This document shows positions 1,581 to 18,748 of a DNA stretch of 64,000 nt, piece by piece. The translations under genes were made by a program, and so were the position numbers. The stretch covers positions 2,074-66,073 of the forward strand of contig JBCCXL010000025.1 of the NCBI GenBank assembly GCA_039191605.1, read 5' to 3'. Each line of letters begins with the position of its first letter. The first letter of the stretch is position 1. The notes under the pieces are model-generated. The model saw only the letters and a list, made by a program, of their open reading frames with translations, had not been told where the DNA came from and did not search any database. Source of the stretch: Acidobacteriota bacterium. GTDB taxonomy: Bacteria > Acidobacteriota > Thermoanaerobaculia > Multivoradales > JAHZIX01.

Positions 1581-3458
1581 ATGACTGCCCCTGACCAAGA
1601 TTATTCAGACCAAGATTCTTTAGTCCATCGACTCCTCGATGGCGCGATTCGCCGGCTCCTGGTCGGCCCCAACGTCTTGCAACGGGTCGCCCGCGCTTTA
1701 CCGCGGGTCGATATTGGAGCGGCTTTCCGTGCGGGGGACGGTATCTCCTCCCTCCCCCGCGCGGGGGCCGAGTTTTTCTCCTCCGGCCGCCGCCGCTGGA
1801 TTCCCGTTGTCGCCCGGGCTTGTGGGCTCTGCCTGCTGCTTCCCGGCCTCGTTCTCGCTCCGTCCTCCGCTACCGCAGAGCCAGCCAATGAGGCAGAGGC
1901 GGAGGCCGCTGTGCCCCTCAGCCCTCCCCTGGAGGATTCCGAGTGGCGGGACGAGGTGCTTTACTTCGCCATCGTCGATCGCTTCGCCGACGGCGACGAG
2001 TCGAACAATCGGCGCGTCAACCGAAACGCCCAGGGGGCTTTTCACGGGGGCGACCTGGCGGGGCTGACGCAGCAGATCGCCGAGATCGCCGAGCTCGGGG
2101 CGACCGCCCTGTGGATCACCCCGGTAGTCAAGAACATCGACGGCTTCGTCACCGGGGCGGGCTTTCCGGATTGGGGCTACCACGGCTATTGGGCCGACGA
2201 TTTCTACGCTCTAGATCCTCGCTTCGGCAGCGAAGATGATCTCCGCCGCCTGGTGGCGGCGGCTCACGAGCGCGGCATCAAGGTGCTGCTAGACGTCGTC
2301 TACAACCATGGTGGTTACGACTCTCGCTACGCCCAGGAGCGCCGCTATCGGCCCTGGACTCGGGTAGAGAGCCGGGGAGAGTGCGGCAGCGACGATCTCA
2401 CCGGCTGCCTCGCCGGCCTGCCGGACTTTCGCACCGATCTGCCGGACGTGCGGGACTACCTGCTGGAGGCCCACCTGGGCCTCGCCGAGCGCACCGGCCT
2501 GGACGGCTTCCGGCTCGATACCGTCAAGCACGTGGAGCACGATTTCTGGCAGGTCCATCGCCAGGCGACCCGGGAGCGGCTGGGAGAGAACTTCTTTCTC
2601 CTCGGGGAGGTTTGGGGCGGTAACGCCAAAGCGCTGGACCCCTGGTTCTCCGGGGACGAGATGGACGCCGGTTTCGACTTCGGCTTCGTCGGATCGTCCA
2701 TCGCCTTCGTCCAGGGCCGCGGGCGGGCGGTGGCCTTCAACCGCTACCTGGAGAAGCGCCACGAGGTTCGGGAGGGCTATCACCTCTCCCACTACCTCTC
2801 CTCCCACGATGTGCCCGGTGCCCTCTACCAGCTCGAGGGCGACCTTCAGCGCTTCCGTCTGCTGGTGGCTCTGCAGCTCACCACCTACGGCATTCCCAAC
2901 ATCTACTACGGGGAAGAGGTCGGCCGCTTCGGCGGGGACTGGCCGGATAACCGCAGCGACATGCCCTGGGGAGATCGGGAGATCGAGCCGGGGGCCGGGG
3001 ACGAGCGCAACGAGGAGCTGAGGGATTACTACATCCAGCTCATCGCGGCTCGGGCCGAGCACCCGGCCCTGTGGCGCGGGGCTCATCGAGGCGTGCTCAC
3101 CGACGATAAGAATCTGCTGGTCTTCGCCCGCGAGGACGGCGAGAGCGGTGAAGTGGTCTACGTTGCGGTCAACCGCGGCGAGGAGGCGGTGAGCGCCTCG
3201 GTGCCAGTGCCCGAGATCTGGCTCGAGGCGGGGGCGGTTACCGAGCTGCTGGGGGGCAGTGAGCATGCCCTGGCGGCGCCGGTGGAGGCGGAAGCCACGG
3301 CGAATCTCAGCTTGACGGTACCGGCCCTCTCCGCCCGAATTTACGCTGTTCCCGCCGGTTCACCGACCGCAGTATCGACTGAGTTATCCAACGAGTTACC
3401 CACTGATTCATCTGCTGGGGCGCCGACTGCCGGCTCCTCCAACTCTGCCCAGGAGTGA
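1581..3458 (+). CDS. GH13 alpha-amylase family glycoside hydrolase, probably exported
   Basis: GH13 conserved regions are visible: [19 protein letters not shown] (nucleophile Asp), LLGEVWGG (acid/base Glu), YLSSHDV. The N-terminus has an RRRW plus hydrophobic stretch (Tat/Sec-like). The exact start is uncertain. Confidence 0.9.
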
Positions 3459-3465: not shown

Positions 3466-4563
3466 ATGGCCAACGTGACCCTCCAAAACGTCCAGAAGAG
3501 CTACGGTGAAGTCTCCGTCATCGACGATCTCAACCTCGAGATCCAGGATGGAGAGTTCATGGTCTTGGTGGGCCCCTCCGGCTGCGGAAAGTCCACCGCG
3601 CTGCGGATGATCGCCGGCCTGGAGGAGATCACCGGCGGGGAGGTCAAGATCGACGGTGGAGTGGTCAACGACCTGCCGCCGAAGGATCGAGACATCGCCA
3701 TGGTGTTCCAGAGCTATGCCCTCTATCCGCACATGACAGTGCGGCAGAACCTGGAGTTCGGCCTCAAGATCCGCAAGATGAAGCGGGAAGAGATCGACCG
3801 CCTGGTGCAGGAGGCGGCGGAGATTTTGGACATCGACCAGCTGCTGGATCGGCGCCCGAAGCAGCTTTCCGGCGGCCAGCGGCAGCGGGTGGCGGTGGGC
3901 CGGGCCATCGTCCGCAAGCCGAAGGTCTTCCTCTTCGACGAGCCGCTGTCCAACCTCGACGCCAAGCTGCGAGTGCAGATGCGGGCGGAGCTATCGAAGC
4001 TCCACTCGCGGCTGCAGACCACCACCGTCTACGTCACCCACGATCAGGTGGAGGCGATGACCATGGGCAACCGAATCGCGGTGCTCAAGGACGGTGACCT
4101 GATGCAGGTAGGCACCCCGCTGGAGCTCTTCCAGCAGCCGCAGAATCTCTTCGTAGCGAATTTCATCGGCACCCCGCCGATGAATTTCCTCGACGCCGTG
4201 GTGGCGGAAGGGGGCCGGGTGCTGCGCGCCGAGGGCGCCGATCTGCCGGTGCCCGAGAGCTGGAGCCGGGCGGTGGCGGGGCGCGACGGAGACGCCATTG
4301 CGGTGGGGGTGCGGCCAACGGACTTCTACGGTCCCGGCGAGACGGCGGACGGCGATACCGCCGCCCTCGATCTCCAGGTGGAGGTGGTGGAGCCCCTGGG
4401 GCACGAGGTGATGGTGCACGGCACCGCCGGTCCCGCCCGCCTGGTGGTGAACCTCGGCCCCCACAGCATCCCGCGCCTCGGAGAGACCCTGGAGGTGCGA
4501 GTGAAGCTCAGCGATCTCCACCTCTTCGATCCCGAAACCGAACAGCGCCTGTCGTCGGATTGA
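3466..4563 (+). CDS. sugar ABC transporter ATP-binding protein (MalK/MsiK/UgpC type)
   Basis: Walker [10 protein letters not shown], signature [10 protein letters not shown], Walker [10 protein letters not shown], and a C-terminal TOBE-like regulatory domain. Starts 8 nt after the amylase stop. Confidence 0.95.
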
Positions 4564-4688
4564 GGGCCGAAAGGGCCGAGACCCAAGCCCGCTCTGGCCC
4601 TAAACTCTCTGAATAGACTTCTGCACTCTTGCCGAAATTTCCCGAATTCTCCCTCTTTCCCCTGGTTGAGACCCCGAAAGGAGCCGTC

Positions 4689-5903
4689 ATGAAATCTCTC
4701 TCCTCCCTGATCCTGGCCGTCGCGGCGATGGCTCTGGTGCTGCCGCTGGAGGCCTTCGCCCAGACCGAGCTGGTGGTGTGGCACGCCTACCGCGCCGGCG
4801 AGAAGGCCGCCTTCGAGAAGGTCATCGAGACCTTCAACTCGAGCCAGAAAGAGATCCAGGTCAAGACCCTGGCGGTGCCCTACGACGCCTACGCCGACAA
4901 GATCAGCGCCGCGGTGCCCAGGGGTAAGGGGCCGGATGTCTTCATCTACGCCCAGGACCGCATGGGCGGCTGGGTCGAGGCGGGCAACACCATCGAGCCC
5001 ATCGACTTCTATCTCGAGGACGAGACGCTGGATCGCTTCATCCCGTCGACGGTGGACGCCATGACGTATCAGGGCACCATCTACGGCCTGCCGCTGAACT
5101 ACAAAGTGGTGACCATGTTCTACAACAAGAAGCTGGTCACCACGCCGCCGACGACCTCCAAGGAGCTGGTGGAGCTGGCGAAGAAGCACACCGACGCCAG
5201 CACCGGTCGCTACGGCCTGGCCTATTGGTACCCGGACTTCTACTACCACGCCAGCCTGATGAACGCCTTCGGCGGCGGCGTCTTCGACGACAACCGCAAG
5301 CCGGTGATCAACCAGGCCGCCAATGTGAAAAGCGTGGAGGCCCTGCTCGGCTGGCTGGAGAAGGACAAGATCCTGCCCGGCGAGCCCACCACCGCCCTGA
5401 TCACCGCGCTGTTCAACGGTGGCAAGGCCGCCATCGTCTTCAACGGCCCTTGGTTCCTGGGGGAGATCAAGGACGACGTGGACTACGGCCTGGCGCCGCT
5501 GCCGACCATCGAGGCCGCCGGGGGCCAGCCGATGCGCCCGTGGATGACCGTCGAGGGGGTGTACATCGCCGCGCCGTCGGAGCACAAGGACGAGGCCTTC
5601 ACCCTGGTGGAGTACCTCACCGATGCCGCCGCCGGCAAGGTGCTGGCCCTGGAGGGTGGTCAGACCCCCGCCAACGAGAGCGTCTACGAAGATTCCGCGG
5701 TGGCGAAGAACGAGACCCTGGCGGCCTTCCGCGAGCAGGTGGAGGTCGCGGTGCCGATGCCCAATCTTCCGGAGATGACCATGGTGTGGTCGCCGGTGAC
5801 CACCGCCATGAACACCATCGTCAAGGGCGCGGCGTCGCCGAAGGCTTCCCTCGATGCCGCCCAGAAGGACGCCGAGGAGCGCATCGACAATCTCTTGAAC
5901 TAA
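4689..5903 (+). CDS. maltose/maltodextrin-type ABC substrate-binding protein (MalE-like)
   Basis: Signal peptide MKSLSSLILAVAAMALVLPLEAFA. Family-1 SBP pattern (ELVVWHAY..., PDVFIYAQDRMGGWVEAG, LPLNYKVVTMFYNKK). AAAGGAG Shine-Dalgarno 7 nt before ATG 4689; the longer ORF from 4629 is unlikely. Confidence 0.85.
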   Translation: MKSLSSLILAVAAMALVLPLEAFAQTELVVWHAYRAGEKAAFEKVIETFNSSQKEIQVKTLAVPYDAYADKISAAVPRGKGPDVFIYAQDRMGGWVEAGNTIEPIDFYLEDETLDRFIPSTVDAMTYQGTIYGLPLNYKVVTMFYNKKLVTTPPTTSKELVELAKKHTDASTGRYGLAYWYPDFYYHASLMNAFGGGVFDDNRKPVINQAANVKSVEALLGWLEKDKILPGEPTTALITALFNGGKAAIVFNGPWFLGEIKDDVDYGLAPLPTIEAAGGQPMRPWMTVEGVYIAAPSEHKDEAFTLVEYLTDAAAGKVLALEGGQTPANESVYEDSAVAKNETLAAFREQVEVAVPMPNLPEMTMVWSPVTTAMNTIVKGAASPKASLDAAQKDAEERIDNLLN

Positions 5904-6152: not shown

Positions 6153-8276
6153 GTGACACAACGCATCCTCTGGCCCGTCGTGGGCTTGTTCGTCGCCCTC
6201 GCCTTCGGCGTAGGGGTGGGCCAATGGCTGCTCCAGGGCACCTACGAGCGCCAGCAGCGCTCGGCGGCGGAGCGCGCCGAGGTGGTGAGCACCATGGCGC
6301 TGTCGGAGCTGGTGTCGGCGACCCTCGAGGGCGGGGAGGAAGAAGGGGTCCAGGAGGTGGTGGAAGCCTGGCAGCAGCGCCACGACACCTTCCAGGTGGT
6401 GCGGGTGATTCAGGGTCGCCGGCTGGTGGCCTCCACCGCGGCGCAGGACCAGGGGGACCAAGCGGCACCGAGGCGCCTGGCGAGGGATGAGAAAGAGTAT
6501 TTCGATACCGCCCAGCGATTGCGCCAGGCGGTGGACAGCAATCGCCAGGGGAGCACCGCGGCGAAGGACGAGGTGGAGGTCTTGTCCCTCGAAGCCGCCG
6601 GTCTCTCGGTGGCGGTGCCGGTGGAGCTCGGAGGCGAGATCGAGGGTGCGGTGCTGGTGGAGACGGAAGCCGCCGCGGAGCTAGCCTCCGCGCCCTCCGG
6701 CACCGCCTGGCTCACCCTGGTCGCGCCGGTCTTGATTCTGGCGCTGTTGGGAGCCTTCACCCCTTTATCGCGCCGCGTCCTGGTGGCGGCGGCGGCGGTG
6801 CTGGCGGTGATCGCTCTCGGCTTCTTCGCCCAGCGCTCCGGCAGCTTGGTGACCTCGGCCCTCACCTCCGCCGGAGAGACGGTGGCGGAGCGCATGCAGC
6901 AGGATGCCGCCACCCTGCAGGAGCTGGTGGCGGCCCAGGTCGGTGCTACTACATCAGAGGCGGTTCTATCGGACGCGGCGGAATCCGAGGCGGTGGAATC
7001 CGAGGATGGCAGCTCCGAAGGACAGCCAGAGGATTCTAGCGAGGGCTCCACGCCGGAGGCGGCTGAGGGGACTACCGAGACCGAACAGCCGGCGGATGCT
7101 GAGGAGCCTGTAGAGACCGAACAGAGCTACGCCCTGGCGGCGGTGGATCCCTCCGCCTGGGATGTCGACCCTCAGCGGGCCGGCCGAGGCTGGATCGACG
7201 CCGCTGGCGCAGTGGTGCCCTCGGCGGTGTCGGAAGCCTCCCTCGGGGTGAGCTCCAGCCTGCGGCAGCGGCTGACGGCGGTGGGGCTGGGGGCGCTGCT
7301 GCTGCTCGCCTTCTTCGGCCTCGGCGGCGCCCAGCGGGTGGTCAGCGATCTGGTGACCTTCCGCCAGGCCTACAGCTATGTCGGTCCGGCGATGATCGGC
7401 ATGCTGATCCTGGTGTTCTTCCCCTTCTTCTACGGCATCGCTCTGTCCTTCACCAATCAGAGCATCTACAACACCGATCAGCCCATCACCGAGATCTGGA
7501 CCGGCTTCGAGAATTACGTCGAGATCCTCAGCGACTTCGAGCTTTACCGCGAGCTGGACGGCGAGAAGGTTCTCAACTTCGAGAACTTCTACTGGACCCT
7601 GTTCATCACCGTGCTGTGGACGGTGACCAACGTCACCATCGGCGTTTCGGTGGGTCTCGCCTTAGCCCTGATGCTGAATACCAAGGGGCTGGCTTTCAAA
7701 CCGATCTATCGGGTGATTTTGATCCTGCCGTGGGCGGTGCCCAACTACATCACCGCGCTGGTGTGGAAAGGCATGTTCCACAAGCAATTTGGGGTGATCA
7801 ACCAGGTCTTCCAGATCTTCGGGCTGGAACCGGTGGGGTGGTTCGACGGGGTCGCGACCTCTTTCTTGACGGTGTTGGCCACCAATAGCTGGCTGTCCTT
7901 CCCCTTCATGATGGTGATTTCCCTCGGCGCACTGCAGTCGATCCCGGCGGATCTCTACGAGGCGGCGCGGGTGGATGGCGCGACCCGGTGGCGGCAGTTC
8001 CGCTCCATCACCCTGCCGATGCTGAAACCGGCCCTGATTCCGGCGGTGATCCTGTCGGTGATCTGGACCTTCAACATGTTCAACATCATCTACCTGGTCT
8101 CCGGCGGTGAGCCCTCCGGCAGCACCGAGATCCTGATCACCGCGGCCTACAAGATTGCCTTCGAGCAATATCGCTACGGCTATGCCGCGGCCTACTCCAC
8201 GGTGATCTTCGGCATCTTGTTGGCCTATGGCTGGTGGCAGATCCGGGTGACCAAGGCGACGGAGGCGGTGCAATGA
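6153..8276 (+). CDS. MalF-like ABC sugar permease with ~400-aa N-terminal extension
   Basis: The C-terminal ~300 aa is a typical binding-protein-dependent permease with the EAA loop EAARVDGATRWRQFRSITLPMLKP. The N-terminal 400 aa holds TM segments, a ~170-aa extracytoplasmic-looking domain and an acidic Ser/Glu-rich linker. Confidence 0.85.
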   Translation: MTQRILWPVVGLFVALAFGVGVGQWLLQGTYERQQRSAAERAEVVSTMALSELVSATLEGGEEEGVQEVVEAWQQRHDTFQVVRVIQGRRLVASTAAQDQGDQAAPRRLARDEKEYFDTAQRLRQAVDSNRQGSTAAKDEVEVLSLEAAGLSVAVPVELGGEIEGAVLVETEAAAELASAPSGTAWLTLVAPVLILALLGAFTPLSRRVLVAAAAVLAVIALGFFAQRSGSLVTSALTSAGETVAERMQQDAATLQELVAAQVGATTSEAVLSDAAESEAVESEDGSSEGQPEDSSEGSTPEAAEGTTETEQPADAEEPVETEQSYALAAVDPSAWDVDPQRAGRGWIDAAGAVVPSAVSEASLGVSSSLRQRLTAVGLGALLLLAFFGLGGAQRVVSDLVTFRQAYSYVGPAMIGMLILVFFPFFYGIALSFTNQSIYNTDQPITEIWTGFENYVEILSDFELYRELDGEKVLNFENFYWTLFITVLWTVTNVTIGVSVGLALALMLNTKGLAFKPIYRVILILPWAVPNYITALVWKGMFHKQFGVINQVFQIFGLEPVGWFDGVATSFLTVLATNSWLSFPFMMVISLGALQSIPADLYEAARVDGATRWRQFRSITLPMLKPALIPAVILSVIWTFNMFNIIYLVSGGEPSGSTEILITAAYKIAFEQYRYGYAAAYSTVIFGILLAYGWWQIRVTKATEAVQ

Positions 8277-9157
8277 GCCGGTCCCAGCGCAACGAAGGCG
8301 GATCCCACGTCTTCCTTCACGTCTTCCTCATCGTCTTCTCCCTGCTCACCGCGTACCCGATCCTCTGGGTCTTCGCCATCGCCTTCAGCGGCGAGCAGAA
8401 CCTGGCCATCGTCGACGTGCCCCAGGACGCCACGGTGATGGATCGGCTGCGGGCGATCTTTCCGTGGCCGGATCAGGTGAGCGTCTCCAACTTCACCTCG
8501 GTGTGGACCGAGCAGCCCTTCGGCCGCTGGCTGCTCAACAGCGCCATCATCGCCTCGGCGACCACGGTGCTGGGAGTCTTTCTCTCCTGCACCGCCGGCT
8601 ATGCCTTCTCGCGCTTCAAGTTCCCCGGCCAGCGGGCGGGTCTGATGTCTTTCCTGGTGTCGCAGATGTTCCCCGGCACCCTGACCCTGATCCCCCTCTA
8701 CATCATCCTGGTGCAATTCCTCGGTCTGGGGTCCTCGTACCTCGGCCTGATCCTGGTCTACGCGGCGACGGCGATCCCCTTCTGCGTGTGGATGCTGAAG
8801 GGCTACTTCGACACCATCCCGCTGGAGCTGGAGGAGGCGGCGCTGATGGACGGCGCCTCCCGCGGCACCATCTTCTGGCGCATCATCCTGCCGCTGGCGA
8901 AGCCGGCGGTGGCGGTCACCGCGCTGTTCTCGTTCATGGCCGGCTGGAACGAGTTCATTCAGGCGGCGACCTTCATGGACGACGAGACCATGTACACCGC
9001 GCCGGTGGGCCTGCGCTTCTTCGTCGGCGGCTACGCCCAGGATTGGGGCTATTTCGCCGCCGGCGCCATCATCGTCGCCATTCCAGTAGTGATCCTGTTC
9101 CTCGCGCTGCAGCGCTTCCTCGTCTCTGGCCTGACCGCCGGAGCGGTGAAGGGCTAG
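8273..9157 (+). CDS. MalG-like ABC sugar permease
   Basis: EAA loop EAALMDGASRGTIFWRIILPLAKP and six hydrophobic segments. ATG 8273 overlaps the upstream stop (ATGA). Confidence 0.9.
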   Translation: MSRSQRNEGGSHVFLHVFLIVFSLLTAYPILWVFAIAFSGEQNLAIVDVPQDATVMDRLRAIFPWPDQVSVSNFTSVWTEQPFGRWLLNSAIIASATTVLGVFLSCTAGYAFSRFKFPGQRAGLMSFLVSQMFPGTLTLIPLYIILVQFLGLGSSYLGLILVYAATAIPFCVWMLKGYFDTIPLELEEAALMDGASRGTIFWRIILPLAKPAVAVTALFSFMAGWNEFIQAATFMDDETMYTAPVGLRFFVGGYAQDWGYFAAGAIIVAIPVVILFLALQRFLVSGLTAGAVKG

Positions 9158-9172
9158 TACGCCCAATTTCTG

Positions 9173-9199
9173 AATCCCGACTTCCTAATCCCGACTTCC
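9173..9199. repeat. two copies of AATCCCGACTTCC at 14-nt period
   Basis: Read directly: aatcccgacttcc t aatcccgacttcc, in the spacer upstream of gene 9287. Confidence 0.85.
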
Positions 9200-9286
9200 G
9201 AACCTCAACTTTCCAAGTCTGACTTCAACCATCCAACTGATCCGGGCTCCTGAACACACATGGGCTCATCGAAAGGAGGCACAACC

Positions 9287-10126
9287 ATGTCGAATCACCT
9301 GCAAAGCGTCGCGGCCCGTGTCGCGGTCGCGGCGCTCCTCGCCCTCGCTTTGATCGCCGTTCCCGTGGCGGCGGAGAAGCTGGAATTCAAAGACCCCACC
9401 GGGGATGACAACGGACCGGGGGAATACGTCTATCCCACCGATGCGGTGTACAACCCGGGCTCCTTCGACCTCACCGGTCTGTCGGTGAAGACCAAGGGCA
9501 AGAACGTCGACTTCTCGGTGGACCTCAACACCCGCCTAGAAGATCCCTGGAACATGGGCACCGGTTTCTCGGTGCAGATGATCTTCATCTTCATCGACAC
9601 CGACGGGGAAGAGGGCAGCGGCAATACCGAGACGCTGCCGGGTCTGAACGTCGAGTTCGCCCCCTATCACGCCTGGGACAAGGTGGTGATCCTCTCGCCC
9701 CAGGGCGCTTCTCGGGTCAAGACCGAGGTGGAGCAGAAGGTCGCTGATCTCGCCGGGGACATCGTGATTCCCGGTCGAGTCAAGGGCGTCAACCGCAGCA
9801 TCAGCGCTCGCGTGAAGCTCGAAGAGCTCGGTGGCGGCGATCCGTCTACCTGGGGCTACCAGGTGTTGGTGCAGTCCAACGAGGGCTTCCCCAGCGGCGG
9901 CGATCTGCTGACCCGCAAGGTCAATGAATTCGAGGGCCAGCACCGTTTCGGTGGCGGCAACGACTACGACTGCGACCCCCACGTCGTGGACATTCTCGCC
10001 GGCAGCGGCAGCGGCAGCGACGACGAAGTCGCCGCCCAGCACGCGCAGCTGGCCTATGAGTGCGATGCCGAGGGCAACGCAAGCAAGCGAGCGACTTTGA
10101 CCACCGTCCGCAAGTCCGCGGACTGA
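9287..10126 (+). CDS. secreted Glucodextran_C-like (glucan/cell-surface binding module) protein, paralog 1
   Basis: AAAGGAGG Shine-Dalgarno 7 nt before ATG 9287; signal peptide. The motif string DPTGDDNGPGEYVYPTD...GSFDLTGLSV...FSVQMIFIFIDTDGEEGSG...LPG...WDKVVILSP...FGGGNDY...PHVVDIL matches what I recall of Pfam Glucodextran_C (PF09985). Confidence 0.7.
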   Translation: MSNHLQSVAARVAVAALLALALIAVPVAAEKLEFKDPTGDDNGPGEYVYPTDAVYNPGSFDLTGLSVKTKGKNVDFSVDLNTRLEDPWNMGTGFSVQMIFIFIDTDGEEGSGNTETLPGLNVEFAPYHAWDKVVILSPQGASRVKTEVEQKVADLAGDIVIPGRVKGVNRSISARVKLEELGGGDPSTWGYQVLVQSNEGFPSGGDLLTRKVNEFEGQHRFGGGNDYDCDPHVVDILAGSGSGSDDEVAAQHAQLAYECDAEGNASKRATLTTVRKSAD

Positions 10127-10148
10127 TTTTTCTGGAGAGCTCAGAACG

Positions 10149-12347
10149 ATGAAAACTTCATTGCGTTTCGCCCTGGTGCTGGCGGCGGTGGCCCTGATGG
10201 CTGCCGGCTCCGCCGCCGAGGCGCAGCAGAAGCTGCAGATCGGAGGCAACGTCTACACTAAGTTCCTGTGGGGAACCGAGCGGGTGGACGGCAGTCTCTA
10301 CAACTTCACCACCATTCCCTCCGAGGGTTATGGCGACACCGGGCAGGGTACGGAGATCGAGCTTCTGCTCTCCGCCAAGGTCTCGAAGTGGGTGGAGATC
10401 AGCGGTCGCCTCAAGGGCCGCTTCAACCAGAACTTCTGGACTAATTTCGGCGGCTTCGGCGGCGGCGGAGTGGGAGATCCCGGCTCCGGCGACTGCCTCG
10501 GCGGCGACTGCGGCGAATTCGATTCCCGCTCTGCTCAATACCTCAAGGTACGCGGCATGACGGTGCTGCTGACCCCCGGCTACAGCTGGGTGGACACCAT
10601 CACCATCGGCTCGTCGGATTTCGGGATGTTCAACCCCATGGTCCACGGCAAGATCCGCTTCATCGACCGCGACAACGGCTCCGGGATCATCTTCCAGGGT
10701 TCCAACGCCGACCGCTCGGTGACCTATGACTTCACCCGCTTCTCCCTGCCTCGCCTATGGGCCGGTCCTGAGTTCGATACCGGCGACTTCGCGGCTCTCG
10801 ACTCCGCCTACACCCTGCAGCTGGGTATCAGTCCGTCATCGAGCTACGACCTGACCCTCATCGGAACCTACGTCAACGATACCGAGATCGACGCTAGCGA
10901 TCTCAACCTCGACGACGGCCGGGACCTGCGGGCTCGTTTCCGCAATTCGGTCTATGGCGCGGTGCTCAACGTCTACGCCAGCAACTCGGTGGATCTCGGG
11001 CTGCAGTACTACCACTCCGAGTCCCAGACCTTCAGTGACTTCGCGCCGTCCAGCTTCTTCGGCCTCTCCGGCTTCTCGCCGGTGCCGGCGGGCAAGCTCT
11101 CCGACGACGCGCTGATCGGTGATGTCGGACTCAACGATCCCTTCGGCAACGGCCTGTCCTTCAACCTGCAGTACTTCGATATCGGTTCGGATTACGTCTC
11201 TATTCTCGCCGCCCGCCGCGAGCAGGACGTGCTCCTCACCGAGGGCTTCGATGGCGCCTTTGCCTTCCCTGGCCCCAGCAACGCCGCCTTCGGCGTGTTC
11301 GGCGGCAACCCCACCCGCATCGGCTACGGCGGATGGCAGGGCAACGCCCAGCAGGTGGCCACCATCAACGTCGACAACGAGTTCACCGATTTCGACGAGC
11401 AGCTGGCGGAGACGGTGATCGGCTGGAAGGGCTTCACCTTCAACCCGGTGTACGGCTCCGGCTCCCTGGATATCTCCGCGGAGTACACCTACATCGACTA
11501 CAACACCAACTGGCAGGCCTTCGACGATCCCACCCGTCCGGTGGATTCGAGCATCTACCCGGTGCACGAGCTGGATACCGGCGTCGGCCACAACTTCCGT
11601 AGCGCCTACGCTCCCTTCCAGGAGAAGGAAACCGAGATCCTCGCCCTCAACTTCAAGTACCTACTGGATGCCGGCAAGGGCGTGGACATCTTCGGCAAGG
11701 TGAAGTTCATCGACGAGACCGACAAGCGCCTCGACGACTCGAACTTTCTGCCCTTCGCCGCCGGCGACTGCCCCGGTGGCGGCGTCGCCTGCGCCAACAA
11801 CGCCAACGCCTACAACGCGGCGGGCAACAGCACCTCGGCGATCTACGGCAACCCGCCGGTGATCACCGTCAACGGCGTGACCGGCTACCAGTGGAAGCCC
11901 TTCGACTCGCTGGCCGACGACGACCGGGACATGGACTACAAGATGTACCAGCTCGGCGCCGGCTATCAGCTCACCAACGATCTCTACGCCTCGCTGCAAT
12001 TCGAGCGCTACGACGTGGACCTGCAGGACGGCAACACCGCCTTCCAGGCCTACCAGCTCCACGAGATCGCCTCCGGTGACCACACCAAGAACAAGCTGAT
12101 CCTGAAGGCTCGCTACGTTCTCGGCGGCGCGGAGATCGGCTTCAACTACGAGTACAACGAAGGCACCTTCGACCCTGACTTCGGTACCGGCTTCGTCGTC
12201 AACTTCGCCGACGAAGGCACCGCCGCCAGCGTCAACGTGCCGGTGGGCTCGCCGGGCTTCTTCGGTCGCTTCGGCGGCTGGAACAGCCTGGCGGAGCGCG
12301 ACTTCGATCAGCAGCGCTTCAAGGCCTACGTCAAGGTCCAGTTCTAA
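10149..12347 (+). CDS. outer-membrane beta-barrel protein (large porin-like), family not recognised
   Basis: Signal peptide MKTSLRFALVLAAVALMAAGSAAEA. Gly/Tyr/Asn/Asp-rich alternating pattern throughout. The C-terminus ...RFKAYVKVQF ends in Phe, as in BAM substrates. Confidence 0.7.
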   Translation: MKTSLRFALVLAAVALMAAGSAAEAQQKLQIGGNVYTKFLWGTERVDGSLYNFTTIPSEGYGDTGQGTEIELLLSAKVSKWVEISGRLKGRFNQNFWTNFGGFGGGGVGDPGSGDCLGGDCGEFDSRSAQYLKVRGMTVLLTPGYSWVDTITIGSSDFGMFNPMVHGKIRFIDRDNGSGIIFQGSNADRSVTYDFTRFSLPRLWAGPEFDTGDFAALDSAYTLQLGISPSSSYDLTLIGTYVNDTEIDASDLNLDDGRDLRARFRNSVYGAVLNVYASNSVDLGLQYYHSESQTFSDFAPSSFFGLSGFSPVPAGKLSDDALIGDVGLNDPFGNGLSFNLQYFDIGSDYVSILAARREQDVLLTEGFDGAFAFPGPSNAAFGVFGGNPTRIGYGGWQGNAQQVATINVDNEFTDFDEQLAETVIGWKGFTFNPVYGSGSLDISAEYTYIDYNTNWQAFDDPTRPVDSSIYPVHELDTGVGHNFRSAYAPFQEKETEILALNFKYLLDAGKGVDIFGKVKFIDETDKRLDDSNFLPFAAGDCPGGGVACANNANAYNAAGNSTSAIYGNPPVITVNGVTGYQWKPFDSLADDDRDMDYKMYQLGAGYQLTNDLYASLQFERYDVDLQDGNTAFQAYQLHEIASGDHTKNKLILKARYVLGGAEIGFNYEYNEGTFDPDFGTGFVVNFADEGTAASVNVPVGSPGFFGRFGGWNSLAERDFDQQRFKAYVKVQF

Positions 12348-12483
12348 GCGGACCAACTCATCGGCTCGGGCCTCGAGGGGGCCCGGGTCGGTGACCGTCG
12401 ACGGTGGAGATCCTGCCGTCGGCGCAACCCCGTCTCCCGCTCTGGCCCTGGGCCGGGCGGGGGCTTCCCCTCGGGATTTTTCT

Positions 12484-12520
12484 GGCCTGACTGTATCGGC
12501 CTGACTGTATCGGCCTGACT
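12484..12520. repeat. 14-nt tandem repeat GGCCTGACTGTATC, 2.6 copies
   Basis: Read directly: ggcctgactgtatc ggcctgactgtatc ggcctgact, ~65 nt upstream of ATG 12584. Confidence 0.9.
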
Positions 12521-12583
12521 TTGCGGGCCCTGCTCTACCGGCTGTGGGCCCATCGAAACCACGACGCTTTGGGAGAAACCGTC

Positions 12584-13720
12584 ATGACTCGTTCTTCTCG
12601 CCTCGCTAGCTTACGCCTCGATCGCTGGACTCTGGGAGTCGCGCGACCGAGCTTCGGTCTCGTCGCCCTCGTGCTGCTGATTCTCGGATCTTTCGCCCTC
12701 GCCACGCCGGCGGCGGCGGATCGCGACGATGTCTTCTTCAAGATCACCGATCCCCGGGGCGATGACCACGGCGACGGCAGCCTGACCTATCCCATCTCTC
12801 CGGAGTTCAACGAAGGGGAGCTGGATCTCATCGAGCTCACCGCCAAGGCCGCCAAGGGCGGCACGGAATTCCAGGCGATCTTCGCTGAGCCGATCCGCCG
12901 GCCCCGCCGGGTGGCGGTGGACGCCACCGGGGTAAGCCTCTCGGACGTCGCCCGCTTCGGCTTCTACACCTTCAACATCGACATCTACATCGACACCGAT
13001 CGCGAGCCGGGCTCCGGCGCGGTGCAGACCCTGCCGGGGCGCCGGGCGGAGCTGGATGCCGGCCACGCCTGGGAGAAGGTGGTGGCCCTGACCCCCCGCC
13101 CCCACGCCGCCCGCGGACAGCTGCAGCGGCTGATGATCAAGTCCCTGGAGCGCTCCATGGCGACCACCGGCGAGGCCTCTACCGAGGTAGAGATCTCCGA
13201 GGTCAAGACGGTGGTGCCGGACGAGGTCGGCCGCCACGTCTTCTTCCCCACCCGGGTGCGGGTTTCCGGCTCGAAGGTGCGCTTCTTCGTGCCGGATAGC
13301 TTCCTCGGTGGTCCGGCCCAGGACGATTGGAGCTACACCGTGGTGGTCTCCGGCTCCGACCTGCTGCCCTCCTTCGAGCTCGGCGCAGCCCTCGGCCTCG
13401 GCGAGGCTGGCGAGCCCAACCTGATGGTGCTGCAGCGGGAAGAGGGGCGCAACCAGCTGACCTTCGGCGGCGGTACCGACAACCACAACCTCGAGACCCC
13501 CATCGTCGACATCATCGCTCCCCCGGAGCAGCGCCAGGAGCGTATGCTGCGCTCCTACAACCCGCGCACCGGAGAGCCGGTTCGACTGTCCGGCGTAGTG
13601 CCGGCCCAGGGCGATGAGCGCCCGGCCCGCTACGCCGCGCCGACCGCTCCCCAACAGGCTCCGGAAGTCTCCTCGAAGTCCGAGCGCGAGGACGACGATG
13701 CCGTCGGAGAGGTGCGCTGA
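12584..13720 (+). CDS. secreted Glucodextran_C-like protein, paralog 2
   Basis: GGGAGA Shine-Dalgarno before ATG 12584; TM/signal segment. DPRGDDHGDGSLTYP...GELDLIELT...FYTFNIDIYIDTDREPGSG...LPGRRAEL...WEKVVALTP...FGGGTDN...PIVDIIA aligns with paralogs 1 and 3. Confidence 0.65.
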   Translation: MTRSSRLASLRLDRWTLGVARPSFGLVALVLLILGSFALATPAAADRDDVFFKITDPRGDDHGDGSLTYPISPEFNEGELDLIELTAKAAKGGTEFQAIFAEPIRRPRRVAVDATGVSLSDVARFGFYTFNIDIYIDTDREPGSGAVQTLPGRRAELDAGHAWEKVVALTPRPHAARGQLQRLMIKSLERSMATTGEASTEVEISEVKTVVPDEVGRHVFFPTRVRVSGSKVRFFVPDSFLGGPAQDDWSYTVVVSGSDLLPSFELGAALGLGEAGEPNLMVLQREEGRNQLTFGGGTDNHNLETPIVDIIAPPEQRQERMLRSYNPRTGEPVRLSGVVPAQGDERPARYAAPTAPQQAPEVSSKSEREDDDAVGEVR

Positions 13721-14130
13721 TCCTAGGGTCTGAAGGGTCCCAACAAGCCCCGAGGGCGTGAGATTCAGCGGATGCCGGGCTGAGCCGGCCTGATGCTGGA
13801 TTTCCTTCTCGTCCTCAGTCTCGACTCGGGAAAATTCTCGCTCTCCCAACGCGAGTGGGGTGGAAGGAGCGGCGCCATGGCGCGGCGCTCCTTCCACCCA
13901 TCGTTTCGATTCGTCGCCTCGGGACTGAGCCGCGGCATGTTCGTGGAGCACTTCGTCGGACGTGCCTCGTGGCAGGTCTCGCCGGATTTCTTGCCGAATG
14001 TGTCGCCGGAGTGGGCTGATAGCCTCACGGGGCGAACCTCGGGGGGGCGCCGGACGGACTCGCTGGCCGAGCTGGCTCTAGCAACTCGCTGGACGGGGAG
14101 ACGAGCATTTCGTGGAAAGGAGCGCGGCTC

Positions 14131-15267
14131 ATGAAGCGATTTGGAGTCGGTGGGGGAAGCCCGCGGAGAGGGCTGCTGGGAAACGAGAACGTTGGGTTGA
14201 GGCCGCTAGGCTGGTGGGCTCTCTTCGCCGCCCTGGCGCTGATTGCCGTCGCTACCCTTCCGGTGTTGACGCAGGGAGAGGAGAAAGAGGGGGATCGGAA
14301 GGGAGAGATCTTCGCCGTCGCCGATCCTTACGGAGATGACTTTGGCGCCGGGGAGCTGGTCTACCCGCTGCGGGAAGGGTGGGGGCGTGGAGATCTCGAC
14401 CTGCTGCGCTTCAGCGCGAGTCGGGTGGACGGCGGAACCCGCTTCGAGGCCCGGCTGGCGAGGTCGATTCGGGCGCCGATGCGCCGCGCCGTGGACTTCA
14501 CCGGGATCCAGGAGACGGATATCGCCCGTCTTCCCTTCTATACCTTCAATCTAGACGCCTATATCGACACCTCCGGCAGCGAAGGGGAGGAAGCCCTGGA
14601 AGGATGGGGCGGGGAGCGGGCGATGATGCCGGGAAGGCTGGCGGAGCTGCCGCCGGGGGCCGGCTGGGAAAAGGCCGTGATCCTCACTCCGGCGCCGGCT
14701 CAGGCCCGAGGGGAGCTGGTGCGCACCGTCGCGGCGGCGCTGGAGGACGATCCCGGAACCAGCTTCTCTCATTGGCTGCAGTCTCCGGGGCAATCTCCGG
14801 GGCAGGCGCCGAGCCCGCTGCCCACCGGGCGCCAGCTGCGTCGGGCGGTGGAAGAGGCGCTGAGCCAGCGGGTGCATTTCCCTCAGCAGGTGCACGTCCG
14901 CGGCCGGGAGATCACCTTCTTCGTGCCTGACTCCTTCCTCGGCGGCGCGGCGAGGGCGGAGTGGGGTTACGTGGTGGTGATCACCGGGGCCGAGCTGCAG
15001 CAGCGGGTGAAGATCCCGCTGCTGGCGCCCTACACCCGTCCCGAGAGCGCCGGCCTCGCCATGCCGGTAGTTTCCGGCCGGTCGAAGGACGCCTTCGGCG
15101 GCGGAGCGTGGGATCAACCCCTCCAGCCTTGGTTGATCGACATCCTGGAGGGACCCGGCGCCGATCAGGGAGCGATCTTGCGCAGCTTCGACCCCACCGC
15201 CGGCACCCTGGCGAGAGTGCCACCGGTGGTGCCCGCGATCCTGCCGGCTGCCGATCCCGAAGACTAG
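14131..15267 (+). CDS. secreted Glucodextran_C-like protein, paralog 3
   Basis: GGAAAGGAG Shine-Dalgarno before ATG 14131; signal/TM segment. DPYGDDFGAGELVYP...GDLDLLRFS...FYTFNLDAYIDTSGSEGEE...GRLAEL...WEKAVILTP...FGGGAWD...PWLIDIL. Closest to paralog 2. Confidence 0.65.
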   Translation: MKRFGVGGGSPRRGLLGNENVGLRPLGWWALFAALALIAVATLPVLTQGEEKEGDRKGEIFAVADPYGDDFGAGELVYPLREGWGRGDLDLLRFSASRVDGGTRFEARLARSIRAPMRRAVDFTGIQETDIARLPFYTFNLDAYIDTSGSEGEEALEGWGGERAMMPGRLAELPPGAGWEKAVILTPAPAQARGELVRTVAAALEDDPGTSFSHWLQSPGQSPGQAPSPLPTGRQLRRAVEEALSQRVHFPQQVHVRGREITFFVPDSFLGGAARAEWGYVVVITGAELQQRVKIPLLAPYTRPESAGLAMPVVSGRSKDAFGGGAWDQPLQPWLIDILEGPGADQGAILRSFDPTAGTLARVPPVVPAILPAADPED

Positions 15268-15285: not shown

Positions 15286-16218
15286 ATGGCCAAGGACTTC
15301 GATAGCGCCCGCCGCGCGGCGGTGATTCAGGATCTGCTCGGCGCTCTGCGGGACGAGCCGGTGGACCTGCTGCCCTTCGACGAGGTGAGGGAGAGCCTGC
15401 ACCTGCGGCACCTTGTAGACCGCGGCATCTATGAGGTGCCCCTGGACCAGGTGGTGGGCTCCTTCAACCGCACCCGGGAATTCAACCGCGCCTTCCTGCC
15501 TCGCCGCGCCGGCCAGCGGGAGCGATGGAAGCGAATCGAGGCCCTGGCGAAGGGCTCCGAGGGCTTTCCGCCGGTGGAGCTCTACAAGGTGAGAGACGCC
15601 TACTTCGTCATTGACGGGCACCACCGGATCTCCGTGCTCCGCGCCCTCGAGGCGCCGACGGTGGAAGCCTGGGTGAAGGAATTCCTGACCCCCGTGCCCC
15701 TGTCCCCGGAGGAATCCATCGAAGAGGTGGTGAGCAAGGCCGGCCTCGCCGACTTCCTCGAGGCCACCGGCCTCGACGCCAGCGCCGAAGCCAGCTACCG
15801 GACCACCGCCGCCGGCGGCTACGAGCGCCTGCTGGAGCACATCGTGGTCCACCGCCATTACCTCGGTGTCGAGCAGCAGCGGGAAATCCCGTGGCGCGAG
15901 GCGGTGAGCTCCTGGCGAGATCGCGTCTACCAGCCGGTGATCGAAGTGGTGCGGCAGCGGCGAGTATTGGAACAATTTCCCCAGCGCACCGAGACCGATC
16001 TCTACCTCTTCACCATGGACCACTGGCACCTGCTGCGAGAGCGCTACGGCGACGAGCAAGTCGACGCCCAGCGCGCCGTCCACCACCTCTCCCGCAAACG
16101 CCGTCGCCGCCAGCGCCAGGAAATGCCCTGGGTGCGCCGCAAGCTCCACGACCTCTGGCGTCAGTGGCGGGGGAGTAGCATCAGAGAATCTGAAGCCCAA
16201 CAAGAGTCAAAGAAGTAA
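15286..16218 (+). CDS. ParB/Srx-fold N-terminal domain protein with uncharacterised C-terminal domain
   Basis: YFVIDGHHRISVLRAL is the DGHHR-type ParB-like nuclease-domain signature. The C-terminal half (ERLLEHIVVHRHYLGVEQQREIPW...) resembles a DUF I cannot name with certainty. Basic tail. Confidence 0.6.
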   Translation: MAKDFDSARRAAVIQDLLGALRDEPVDLLPFDEVRESLHLRHLVDRGIYEVPLDQVVGSFNRTREFNRAFLPRRAGQRERWKRIEALAKGSEGFPPVELYKVRDAYFVIDGHHRISVLRALEAPTVEAWVKEFLTPVPLSPEESIEEVVSKAGLADFLEATGLDASAEASYRTTAAGGYERLLEHIVVHRHYLGVEQQREIPWREAVSSWRDRVYQPVIEVVRQRRVLEQFPQRTETDLYLFTMDHWHLLRERYGDEQVDAQRAVHHLSRKRRRRQRQEMPWVRRKLHDLWRQWRGSSIRESEAQQESKK

Positions 16219-16482
16219 GTATGTCGGTGATTGATCGCTACTCACGAGTCTCGCTTTGATGGCGAAGCGGTTTAAGGTCCACCTAGATTCTTGTGATTTA
16301 TTATTGCGGCTTTGAGGGTCTAGCCATATAGATGGTGGCTGTCCATTCTCCGGCTTGAATCCGTTCTGCCGGGGCCTGACGGTTATGATGAGTGAAGGGT
16401 CGGCTTTTTGTATTGTGGATCTTGCAGCAGCTATGTTTTTATTTGAGGAGTGACTAGAATCTTATTGATTAGGGGGATTTAG

Positions 16483-18600: not shown

Positions 18601-18748
18601 GAGGATTCGCGGGTAACTGCATAGGCGTTCAGCTCGCTGGTCCTTGGAGAAAGGCTCAGTGCATTCGTTGACTGCGGAAAGTCCATCAGGATTCAGCAAA
18701 GCTGCTTGGACCTCGAGAGTCTCGAACAGGTGACGGAGGTTCCAGATA

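What the first reader, a model, noticed from the sequence alone, without database searches (positions are those of the whole stretch)
9287..15267. Candidate outer-membrane glucan-capture module: three Glucodextran_C-like paralogs around a 732-aa beta-barrel, appended to a MalEFGK-type locus
Four co-directional genes follow the MalG-like gene:
- secreted protein P1 (9287-10126);
- a signal-peptide protein ending ...KAYVKVQF, a BAM-type C-terminal Phe (10149-12347);
- P2 (12584-13720);
- P3 (14131-15267).
P1-P3 are alignable by eye. Shared motifs are DPxGDDxGxGxxxYP, G(x)[FL]DL, [FY]xFxIDxYIDT[DS], GSG, LPG, W[DE]K[VA]VxL[ST]P, FGGG and P[IVL][IV]DI[IL]. This matches my memory of the Pfam Glucodextran_C module, a glucan or cell-surface binding fold.
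The inference is that surface glucan-binding proteins and a dedicated outer-membrane channel feed the periplasmic MalE-like protein. That would be a functional analogue of Sus or maltoporin systems built from unrelated parts. I am not aware that it has been described.
Basis: partly seen in the sequence, partly recalled or inferred. Interest (0 to 1): 0.7.

Follow-up and report, generated by a model that had tools for sequence, protein, structure and literature searches.

The report
New outer-membrane maltodextrin uptake module
A maltose-type sugar import operon carries a previously undescribed outer-membrane barrel and its partner proteins, conserved across several bacterial phyla and most likely serving as the outer-membrane entry route for starch-derived sugars.

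Summary
P1, P2 and P3 are Pfam Glucodextran_C (PF09985) proteins, with E-values of 4e-59, 9e-35 and 2e-24. The 732-aa protein is an outer-membrane beta-barrel with no Pfam, NCBIfam or PDB sequence match. Two independent AlphaFold2 models give the same 22 strands and no N-terminal plug domain.

The predicted synteny also holds. In 82 related loci the order GH13-MalK-MalE-MalF-MalG-P1-barrel-P2 is almost invariant: P1 sits before the barrel in 77/77 loci and GH13 is present in 57/57. These loci come from Acidobacteriota, Myxococcota (including cultured Corallococcus and Hyalangium) and Ca. Eisenbacteria. More distant relatives occur in MAGs labelled Syntrophaceae and Steroidobacteraceae.

The conserved unit is P1-barrel-P2. 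P3 is an extra paralog specific to this lineage.

In Ca. Aminicenantes and Bradymonadia, P1 and the barrel are one protein: signal peptide, Glucodextran_C, Pro/Ala-rich linker, barrel. In the one Aminicenantes locus examined, this fusion occupies the same slot after MalG. P1 is therefore very likely a physical partner of the barrel, joined at its N-terminal end, which is normally periplasmic.

"Surface capture" is not supported, and a periplasmic position is more likely. No glucan binding has been shown for this domain. I found no description of this module in the literature searched.

The parts
1581..3458 (+). GH13 alpha-amylase, first gene of the operon. It is probably exported and its true start is probably downstream of 1581.
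   Evidence: Pfam Alpha-amylase E 1.9e-48. The best NCBIfam hits are PRK09505-type alpha-amylase (E 1e-59) and cyclomaltodextrinase, both below their cut-offs. I recall PRK09505 as the MalS type; no tool output names it so. The only hydrophobic segment is at residues 74-92, preceded by GRRRW (twin-arginine-like) and followed by ATA|EP. Orthologs are 504-534 aa. Present in 57/57 related loci with enough sequence.
3466..4563 (+). MalK-type ABC ATPase
   Evidence: Orthologs carry ABC_tran, OB_MalK and TOBE_2. Present in 59/59 loci.
4629..5903 (+). MalE/CycB-type periplasmic solute-binding protein
   Evidence: SBP_bac_1 E 1.8e-36. NCBIfam GanS 4.8e-51 and MalE 6e-50, both below cut-off. Present in 60/60 loci.
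6153..8276 (+). MalF-type permease with a roughly 400-aa N-terminal extension
   Evidence: BPD_transp_1 at residues 497-692. NCBIfam MalF E 1.7e-56 at residues 447-702. Hydropathy peaks at 5-23, 187-205, 209-227 and 374-392 precede the core. Orthologs are 649-700 aa.
8234..9157 (+). MalG-type permease
   Evidence: BPD_transp_1 E 6.9e-20. Present in 75/76 loci.
9287..10126 (+). P1: secreted stand-alone Glucodextran_C (DOMON-like) protein, inferred partner of the barrel
   Evidence: PF09985 E 4.4e-59. PDB 1ULV domain match E 2e-17. Signal peptide ...VPVAA|EK with no lipobox Cys. Lies 22 nt upstream of the barrel gene. Immediately upstream of the barrel in 77/77 loci. Fused to the barrel in about 30 non-redundant proteins.
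10149..12347 (+). Outer-membrane beta-barrel of a new family: 22 strands, no plug domain, long conserved loops
   Evidence: No Pfam, NCBIfam or PDB sequence hit. The AF2 model has 22 strands, and these map one-to-one onto the 22 strands of the higher-confidence fusion model. Foldseek finds only generic outer-membrane barrels at TM 0.2-0.5. Signal peptide and C-terminal ...VKVQF. Long loops are more conserved (0.80) than strands (0.71).
12458..12473 (+). Terminator-like GC hairpin followed by a T-run, between the barrel and P2. It may attenuate transcription.
   Evidence: Consensus scan only. Weak evidence: 15 sites were found against 9.2 expected.
12584..13720 (+). P2: longer Glucodextran_C paralog with internal insertions and a Pro/Ala/Glu-rich tail
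   Evidence: PF09985 E 8.6e-35. Signal peptide ...ATPAAA|D. Found downstream of the barrel in 71/75 loci, median 46% identity. Also present beside divergent barrels. Absent beside the fused forms examined.
14131..15267 (+). P3: extra P2-type paralog specific to this lineage
   Evidence: PF09985 E 2e-24. 38% identical to P2. In 80 of 81 loci its best match is the P2 ortholog. Only L009 has a separate P3-like gene, on the minus strand upstream.
15286..16218 (+). Conserved downstream gene of unknown function (310 aa). Association is uncertain.
   Evidence: No Pfam or NCBIfam hit. Homologs at 52-62% identity lie downstream of the module in 19 loci.

Best explanation
P1, the 732-aa barrel and P2 form a conserved outer-membrane module that belongs to a MalS-like-amylase/MalEFGK2 maltodextrin import operon. 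It most likely does the job that maltoporin LamB does in E. coli.

The barrel is a 22-stranded, plug-less outer-membrane protein of a new family. About half of its residues lie in long, unusually conserved loops rich in aromatic and charged residues. Examples are RYIDRDN in loop 3 and ARRExDVLLTEG...DFDE...IGWxG in loop 7. I infer that these loops shape a specific sugar passage.

P1 is a physical partner of the barrel, attached at or near its N-terminal end, which is normally periplasmic. P1 has a CBM9/DOMON-like beta-sandwich fold. I infer that it receives alpha-glucan chains as they emerge into the periplasm, helps retain them, or tethers the channel in the periplasm. The exported GH13 would then trim the chains and MalE would deliver the products to MalFGK2.

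P2, and here P3, are accessory paralogs of the same fold.

Shown: domain identities, barrel architecture, operon conservation across phyla, and P1-barrel gene fusions.
Inferred: the substrate, the side of the membrane on which P1 and P2 sit, and any sugar binding.
For: Identity: PF09985 in P1-P3, and a match to a solved Glucodextran_C domain.

Barrel:
- Two AF2 models have identical 22-strand registers.
- Foldseek probability is 1.0 to outer-membrane barrels only.
- It has a signal peptide and a C-terminal Phe.
- Strand 1 starts right after the signal peptide, so there is no plug domain or TonB box. No TonB/ExbBD or SusD-like genes appear among the Pfam-annotated genes of the loci for which gene tables were returned.

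Synteny in 82 loci: GH13 57/57, MalK 59/59, MalE 60/60, MalF 69/71, MalG 75/76, P1 77/77, P2 71/75. This includes cultured Corallococcus and Hyalangium.

Divergent relatives keep the link:
- A Syntrophaceae-type locus and another divergent locus carry the full operon.
- A Steroidobacteraceae-type locus has MalEFG-P1-barrel-P2-MalQ.
- A Deltaproteobacteria MAG has P1-barrel-ABC transporter.

Fusions:
- About 30 non-redundant 860-1012-aa proteins cover 97-100% of the fused query. The nine inspected in full (P0148, P0171, P0408, P0409, P0412, P0417, P0430, P0437, P0440) have the order signal peptide, Glucodextran_C, Pro/Ala linker, barrel.
- They fall into two sequence groups only 31-35% identical: one near 870 aa (includes a Ca. 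Aminicenantes MAG) and one of 947-1012 aa (includes a Bradymonadia MAG).
- In Aminicenantes locus L093 the fusion sits exactly where P1 plus barrel sit here, directly after MalG.
- The fused barrel has lost its own signal peptide, so this is not read-through.

Periplasmic side:
- The fused domain is N-terminal. Outer-membrane barrels have periplasmic termini (established knowledge).
- Pro/Ala-rich hinges resemble those of OmpA and TonB (my own knowledge).
- P0443 joins a P1-type domain through poly-Pro to an OmpA-family peptidoglycan-binding domain.
- P1-P3 have no lipobox.

Loop conservation is 0.80 against 0.71 for strands.
Against: - No experiment exists. The substrate is inferred only from neighbouring genes.
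- Glucodextran_C has never been shown to bind a sugar and is not a recognised CBM (PMC10074034).
- The relative placement of the P1 domain and the barrel is not resolved. The linker in the fusion model has pLDDT below 50, and I could not run a complex prediction.
- An N-terminal domain plus linker plus C-terminal barrel is also the layout of classical autotransporters, where the N-terminal part ends up outside. A roughly 35-residue linker could thread through a 22-strand barrel.
- Some family members occur away from ABC genes: L089 has the trio alone and L090 the barrel alone.
- The window barrel model is only moderate (pLDDT 61.8), and loops 2, 7 and 8 are unresolved.
Confidence: 0.55

Rival explanations
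1. Surface capture. P1, P2 and P3 are displayed on the cell surface around the barrel, like SusD/E/F around SusC. They bind starch or maltodextrin outside the cell and feed it into the channel.
For: - In other organisms Glucodextran_C is appended to secreted, extracellular glycosidases: GH15, GH49 (P0446), GH53 (PMC8447715), and GH65 and GH57 (PMC10074034).
- The barrel's extracellular loops are unusually conserved, as expected if they dock a partner.
- The fused layout is formally compatible with an autotransporter-like threaded linker.
Against: - There is no lipobox, no T9SS or autotransporter signature, and no secretion genes in the operon.
- Unfused P1 and P2 would need an unknown route across the outer membrane.
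- The fusion to an OmpA-type peptidoglycan-binding domain places the same domain type in the periplasm.
Confidence: 0.2
2. Structural tether. The Glucodextran_C proteins bind peptidoglycan or another envelope polymer rather than the transported sugar, as the Pfam label 'SLH-like binding module' suggests. They would anchor the channel, or the outer membrane, to the cell wall in the manner of OmpA or OmpM. The barrel would still be the maltodextrin pore.
For: - The Pfam description says so.
- Pro/Ala-rich linkers of about 35 residues in the fusions resemble the OmpA hinge (hinge comparison from my own knowledge).
- No sugar binding is known for the domain.
Against: - P0443 already carries an OmpA-type wall-binding domain next to the Glucodextran_C domain. 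A second wall anchor would be redundant.
- Kinetic data on a GH65 enzyme suggest the domain helps recognise alpha-glucan (PMC10074034).
- The strict coupling to alpha-glucan genes across phyla is not expected for a generic tether.
Confidence: 0.15
3. The barrel is not a passive channel. Either it is an outer-membrane-embedded enzyme acting on glucans, as reported for the Corallococcus beta-barrel beta-1,6-glucanase GluM, or it is a translocator that exports P1, P2 or the GH13.
For: - Loops 3 and 7 carry near-invariant acidic residues across the whole family: RYIDRDN, ARRExDVLLTEG and DFDE.
- An outer-membrane barrel glucanase has been described in a genus that also carries this module (PMC10800785).
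Against: - No similarity to any glycoside hydrolase, Omp85 or TpsB family was detected.
- Charged 'polar tracks' are also typical of sugar channels such as LamB (my own knowledge).
- The operon encodes a complete importer with a binding protein.
- I could not compare with the GluM sequence.
Confidence: 0.07

Closest known systems
E. coli maltose system outer-membrane part: LamB maltoporin with periplasmic MalM (malK-lamB-malM), plus MalS, MalE and MalFGK2
   Same: Both have an outer-membrane barrel gene inside a mal operon. Both also encode a periplasmic amylase, a binding protein, an ABC importer, and an accessory secreted protein next to the barrel gene. The inferred role is the same: entry of maltodextrins.
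   Different: There is no sequence relation and no LamB Pfam hit. The barrel has 22 strands rather than 18. About 370 residues lie in conserved loops. The partner proteins are Glucodextran_C/DOMON-like and can be covalently fused to the barrel.
Bacteroidota Sus system (SusC TonB-dependent transporter with SusD/E/F surface lipoproteins, SusG)
   Same: Both have a 22-strand barrel associated with several carbohydrate-module-like partner proteins and GH13 enzymes for starch use.
   Different: This system has no plug domain, no TonB box and no SusD-like gene. The partners are not lipoproteins, and an ABC importer is used instead of an MFS transporter. The partners probably lie on the periplasmic side.
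Barrel-plus-inserted-partner complexes: MtrB/MtrA(/MtrC) and LptD/LptE
   Same: Both have a large plug-less barrel encoded next to soluble partner proteins that form an obligate complex. MtrB is the top or third Foldseek hit.
   Different: TM-scores are only 0.26-0.34. MtrB has 26 strands and its partners are haem proteins. There is no evidence here that P1 enters the lumen.
OmpA / OmpM-type proteins (barrel joined by a Pro/Ala-rich or coiled linker to a periplasmic wall-binding domain)
   Same: The fused relatives have a periplasmic-type domain, a Pro/Ala-rich linker and a barrel. One relative combines the P1-type domain with an OmpA-family domain.
   Different: The domain order is reversed relative to OmpA. 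There is no SLH or OmpA_C domain in the window proteins. The barrel is far larger.
Glucodextranase domain C (PDB 1ULV) / CBM9 / DOMON-like superfamily
   Same: P1-P3 are full-length members of PF09985 and align to 1ULV residues 780-931. The fold is described as a CBM9-like beta-sandwich (PMC10074034).
   Different: Here the domain is a stand-alone secreted protein, or is fused to an outer-membrane barrel, rather than appended to a glycosidase. Its ligand is unknown in every context.

Membership tests
Pfam PF09985 Glucodextran_C (DOMON-like clan) | Score above the Pfam gathering cut-off (22 bits) with near-full model coverage | tested here: met
   P1 200.2 bits (model positions 3-220 of 228), P2 120.7 bits (2-224), P3 86.8 bits (1-226). 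P1 matches 1ULV residues 780-931 at E 2e-17.
Pfam PF09985 Glucodextran_C (DOMON-like clan) | Binding of a carbohydrate or cell-wall ligand | not testable with these tools
Bacterial outer-membrane beta-barrel protein (general) | Cleavable signal peptide, an even number of antiparallel membrane strands closing a barrel, and a C-terminal beta-signal ending in an aromatic residue | tested here: met
   Signal peptide ...SAAEA|QQ and C-terminus ...YVKVQF. Two AF2 models give 22 strands that map one-to-one. Foldseek probability 1.00 to outer-membrane barrels only.
Maltoporin LamB (PF02264) | Sequence membership and an 18-strand barrel | tested here: not met
   No Pfam or NCBIfam hit. The barrel has 22 strands. 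Foldseek to 1MAL/1MPR gives only TM 0.23-0.43, no better than unrelated porins.
TonB-dependent transporter / SusC | N-terminal plug domain (PF07715) with a TonB box, plus a 22-strand barrel (PF00593) | tested here: not met
   No PF07715 or PF00593 hit. Strand 1 begins at residue 29, directly after the signal peptide. The strand number (22) is the only shared feature. Matches to BtuB, OprC and XusA have TM 0.22-0.40.
TonB-dependent transporter / SusC | Adjacent SusD-like lipoprotein or TonB-ExbBD dependence | tested here: not met
   No such genes appear in the window region scanned or in the related loci for which Pfam-annotated gene tables were returned.
CUT1 MalEFGK2-type ABC importer | Binding protein, two BPD_transp_1 permeases and a MalK-type ATPase in one operon | tested here: met
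   Pfam and NCBIfam hits. OB_MalK and TOBE_2 in orthologs. All NCBIfam equivalog scores are below cut-off, so exact substrate specificity is not assigned.
SLH-domain outer-membrane tethers (OmpM / SlpA) | SLH domain (PF00395) N-terminal to the barrel | tested here: not met
   No SLH hit in any protein. The Pfam name 'SLH-like' for PF09985 is descriptive only.
Classical autotransporter (type Va) | 12-strand C-terminal barrel (PF03797) with a helical linker in the pore | tested here: not met
   No autotransporter Pfam hit. The barrel has 22 strands. The fusion linker is Pro/Ala-rich and not predicted helical.

The most novel reading that the evidence does not exclude
The P1-barrel-P2 module is a new class of multi-component outer-membrane glycan translocon. 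A plug-less 22-strand barrel would be gated or ratcheted by non-covalently bound (or fused) DOMON/CBM9-like proteins on its periplasmic face. It might also couple physically to the enlarged periplasmic loops of the co-conserved long MalF. That would give energy-independent but directional uptake of long alpha-glucan chains across the whole envelope.
Probability: 0.2. Interest if true: 0.85.

Novelty: new variant of a known kind. Interest (0 to 1): 0.62.

Why it matters
How diderm bacteria outside Proteobacteria and Bacteroidota move oligosaccharides across the outer membrane is largely unknown. This is especially true of Acidobacteriota, which are among the most abundant soil bacteria.

This module would be a third solution for starch and maltodextrin entry, after LamB-type porins and SusC/TonB-dependent transporters. 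It is built from an uncharacterised barrel family and a domain whose function has stayed open since the 2004 glucodextranase structure.

The gene fusions and the operon context give the first clear functional setting for stand-alone Glucodextran_C proteins.

Cultured Corallococcus and Hyalangium carry the module, so the hypothesis may be testable genetically.

Tried and rejected
- Sequence searches of the barrel against Pfam, NCBIfam and PDB, both as a single sequence and as a 28-sequence profile, found nothing.
- Pfam scans of ten divergent family members gave only sub-threshold OMP_b-brl hits.
- Foldseek on both models returned only generic barrels at low TM-score. No specific structural relative could be named, and I do not treat the MtrB top hit as homology.
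- I asked whether the large loops 9 and 11 occur only where P2 is present, which would hint that P2 docks on the outside. I rejected this because the short barrel P0141 lacks those loop elaborations yet has P2.
- I predicted the natural fusion hoping to see where the P1 domain sits. The linker is low-confidence and no coordinates or PAE were available, so the side is unresolved.
- Literature searches for Glucodextran_C, PF09985, DOMON plus maltodextrin, and maltoporin in Acidobacteria or Myxococcus found no description of the module. The 2004 glucodextranase structure paper is not held.
- Pfam at permissive thresholds on the 310-aa downstream protein, the MalF N-terminal 400 aa and the P2 tail gave nothing.
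- Genes from 16.4 to 36 kb are unrelated to glucan use.
Full report
**What is in the window**

Positions 1581-15267 hold nine co-directional genes on the + strand:
- a GH13 alpha-amylase (Pfam E 1.9e-48);
- MalK, MalE, MalF and MalG homologs;
- P1, the 732-aa protein, P2 and P3.

The best NCBIfam hits for the GH13 are PRK09505-type alpha-amylase and cyclomaltodextrinase. I recall PRK09505 as the periplasmic MalS type; no tool output names it so.

The GH13 has a single hydrophobic segment, preceded by GRRRW and followed by ATA|EP. It is therefore probably exported.

Downstream genes from 16.4 kb onward are unrelated to glucans: a GFO/IDH/MocA-like protein, an AraC regulator, M16 peptidases, LexA and others.

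**Check of the observation**

P1, P2 and P3 are clear members of Pfam PF09985 Glucodextran_C. Their scores are 200, 121 and 87 bits against a cut-off of 22, with near-complete model coverage. P1 aligns to the C-terminal domain of the solved glucodextranase 1ULV at E 2e-17.

They are paralogs well beyond chance. P2 and P3 are 38% identical (E 4e-65), and P1 and P2 are 28% identical (E 2e-25).

Each of the three has a Sec-type signal peptide with an Ala-x-Ala-like cleavage site and no lipobox cysteine.

**The barrel**

The 732-aa protein has a signal peptide and ends ...KAYVKVQF. It has no Pfam, NCBIfam or PDB sequence match, either alone or as a 28-sequence profile.

An AlphaFold2 model built from 28 orthologs is of moderate quality (pLDDT 61.8, pTM 0.61). 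It predicts 22 membrane strands joined by short turns on one side and long loops on the other. Strand 1 starts at residue 29, directly after the signal peptide, so there is no N-terminal plug domain or TonB box.

A second model, of a distant natural fusion protein with a 52-row alignment, is better (pLDDT 78.4, most strands above 90). It also has 22 strands. The two sets of strands map one-to-one through the alignment.

Foldseek against the PDB returns only generic outer-membrane barrels: MOMP, MtrB, TonB-dependent receptors, AlgE, maltoporin and OmpM. TM-scores are 0.2-0.5. I therefore treat it as a new barrel family.

About half of the residues (369) lie in the long loops. These loops are more conserved (mean column identity 0.80) than the strands (0.71) or turns (0.70). 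Loop 7 (residues 346-422) scores 0.88 and loop 10 scores 0.91.

Several motifs persist across the whole divergent family: GSxDxGxFxPxTxGxxRYIDRDN, ARRExDVLLTEG and DFDE...IGWxG. Two loop Cys pairs (116/121 and 541/548) are invariant among orthologs.

Loops that are more conserved than strands are atypical for porins. This pattern suggests that the loops form a specific internal constriction or a docking surface. That reading is inference.

**Synteny**

The barrel has more than 660 close homologs at 55-72% identity. Every source that names them calls them 'hypothetical'.

A scan of species-representative genomes returned 80 loci, and two more came from contig look-ups. By record title, about 70 are Acidobacteriota (Thermoanaerobaculia, Holophagales or unclassified). 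Eight are Myxococcota, including cultured Corallococcus exercitus, C. aberystwythensis, C. carmarthensis and Hyalangium versicolor. Two are Ca. Eisenbacteria.

A tblastn survey with the window proteins counted each gene in loci with enough flanking sequence:

| Gene | Loci with the gene / loci with room |
|---|---|
| GH13 | 57/57 |
| MalK | 59/59 |
| MalE | 60/60 |
| MalF | 69/71 |
| MalG | 75/76 |
| P1 directly upstream of the barrel | 77/77 |
| P2 directly downstream | 71/75 |

All are in the same order and orientation. A second GH13 on the opposite strand, and a homolog of the 310-aa gene at 15286-16218, often follow.

That test is passed strongly.

P3 is not part of the conserved block. 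Its best match in 80 of 81 loci is the P2 ortholog, and only L009 has a separate P3-like gene.

**The wider family**

An exhaustive profile search found only 255 representatives at 50% clustering, many of them fragments. This is a small family. Divergent members keep the association:
- A locus whose barrel is labelled Syntrophaceae, and another divergent locus, carry the full operon.
- A locus whose barrel cluster includes a Steroidobacteraceae MAG has MalE-MalF-MalG-P1-barrel-P2-MalQ.
- A Deltaproteobacteria MAG has P1-barrel followed by an ABC ATPase, a binding-protein/permease fusion and a permease.
- One short-barrel member has the P1-barrel-P2 trio without ABC genes.
- One barrel stands alone on a short contig.

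**Gene fusions**

Two representatives, P0148 (877 aa) and P0171 (959 aa), are single proteins. Their order is signal peptide, Glucodextran_C, Pro/Ala-rich linker, barrel.

A search with P0148 found about 30 non-redundant proteins of 860-1012 aa covering 97-100% of the fused query, in two sequence groups only 31-35% identical. One group is near 870 aa and includes a Ca. Aminicenantes MAG and a candidate division CSSED10 record. The other is 947-1012 aa and includes a Bradymonadia MAG.

The fused barrel lacks its own signal peptide, so this is not read-through or an assembly artefact. P0148 was assembled independently from two samples.

In Aminicenantes locus L093 the order is LacI-type regulator, MalK, MalE, MalF, MalG, fusion. 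The fused gene occupies exactly the slot held by P1 plus the barrel in the window. Other fusions sit next to GH13 and GH15 genes.

This is a classic Rosetta-stone signal that P1 and the barrel work as one physical unit.

**Which side of the membrane**

Outer-membrane barrels with an even strand number have both termini in the periplasm (established knowledge). An N-terminal domain on a roughly 35-residue Pro/Ala-rich linker is therefore most simply periplasmic. The OmpA hinge and the TonB spacer are similar (my own knowledge).

One relative, P0443, joins a P1-type domain through a poly-proline stretch to an OmpA-family peptidoglycan-binding domain. That independently places this domain type in the periplasm. 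It is a single metagenomic protein in a non-mal context.

P1-P3 have no lipobox or other surface-targeting signal.

Against this, classical autotransporters share the 'N-terminal domain, linker, C-terminal barrel' order and export the N-terminal part. The linker in the fusion model is low-confidence, and I could not run a complex prediction.

I therefore favour a periplasmic position over a surface position by roughly 2-3 to 1. It is not settled.

**What the Glucodextran_C domain does**

According to PMC10074034, the domain belongs to the DOMON-like superfamily and has a CBM9-like beta-sandwich fold. It occurs in GH15, GH57, GH65 and GH49 enzymes. [quoted passage not shown]

It is also found on an archaeal GH53 galactanase (PMC8447715). 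Glucan binding by P1-P3 is therefore plausible but undemonstrated.

**Most likely mechanism**

The following is inference resting on the shown anatomy.
1. Maltodextrins or longer alpha-glucan chains cross the outer membrane through the 22-strand barrel. Its conserved aromatic and charged loops form the specific passage.
2. P1, bound at the periplasmic N-terminal end of the barrel, receives or retains the emerging chain, or positions the channel.
3. The exported GH13 trims the chains.
4. MalE delivers the products to MalFGK2.
5. P2, and here P3, are accessory paralogs. They are less conserved (median 46% identity, against 61% for P1 and 55-72% for the barrel) and can be lost.

The function parallels LamB/MalM/MalS in E. 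coli, but with unrelated parts.

**Rivals**

The rival models are surface capture, a pure wall-tether role for P1 and P2, and an enzymatic or exporter role for the barrel. They are laid out separately with their tests.

**Novelty**

No family model, structure, annotation or paper that I could search describes the barrel or the module.

The kind of system is known: an outer-membrane sugar entry attached to a mal ABC operon. The components and the obligate barrel-DOMON partnership are new. I therefore rate it a new variant of a known kind, of solid interest, and possibly testable in cultured myxobacteria.

Noticed in passing
window 6153-7352 (MalF residues 1-400): The MalF homolog is 707 aa. Before the canonical permease core it carries extra hydrophobic segments at residues 5-23, 187-205, 209-227 and 374-392. 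Between them lie a roughly 160-aa loop and a roughly 145-aa strongly acidic low-complexity loop. Long MalF proteins (649-700 aa) recur in the related operons, but the extension is poorly conserved in sequence. Whether it contacts the P1/P2/barrel module is unknown.
   Followed up: partly
window 15286-16218: A 310-aa protein with no Pfam or NCBIfam hit contains a DGHHR motif reminiscent of ParB/sulfiredoxin-fold proteins (from memory). Homologs at 52-62% identity lie downstream of the module in 19 related loci, so it may be functionally linked or simply syntenic.
   Followed up: partly
window 16001-20000: GC content drops from about 0.65-0.68 to 0.54-0.585. The region holds a 705-aa protein with only a weak N-terminal GFO/IDH/MocA Rossmann match. 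It may be a horizontally acquired insertion, and it lies where many related loci have a second, opposite-strand GH13.
   Followed up: no
window 10106-10123 and 12458-12473: Terminator-like GC hairpins with T-runs lie at the very end of P1 (overlapping its stop codon) and between the barrel and P2. They might set the expression ratio of P1, barrel and P2. The evidence is a consensus match only.
   Followed up: no
L092 709-3726 (protein P0443): This 1005-aa metagenomic protein combines a P1-type Glucodextran_C domain, a poly-proline linker, an OmpA-family peptidoglycan-binding domain and about 600 aa of unknown sequence. Its context is not a mal operon.
   Followed up: partly
L088 11577-13757: In a Deltaproteobacteria MAG the ABC transporter following P1-barrel encodes a 726-aa fusion of the solute-binding protein (SBP_bac_1) with a permease (BPD_transp_1).
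   Followed up: no
L086 10096-11280 and L091 7882-9066: The P2 orthologs in the Syntrophaceae-type and Steroidobacteraceae-type loci carry a C-terminal SHOCT (short C-terminal domain) Pfam hit. The hit is faint in L086 and unmarked in L091. This hints that the P2 tail mediates oligomerisation or docking.
   Followed up: no
window 24883-25857: A LexA homolog (LexA_DNA_bind plus Peptidase_S24) has an N-terminal extension of about 120 aa in the longest ORF. The start codon is probably mis-assigned.
   Followed up: no
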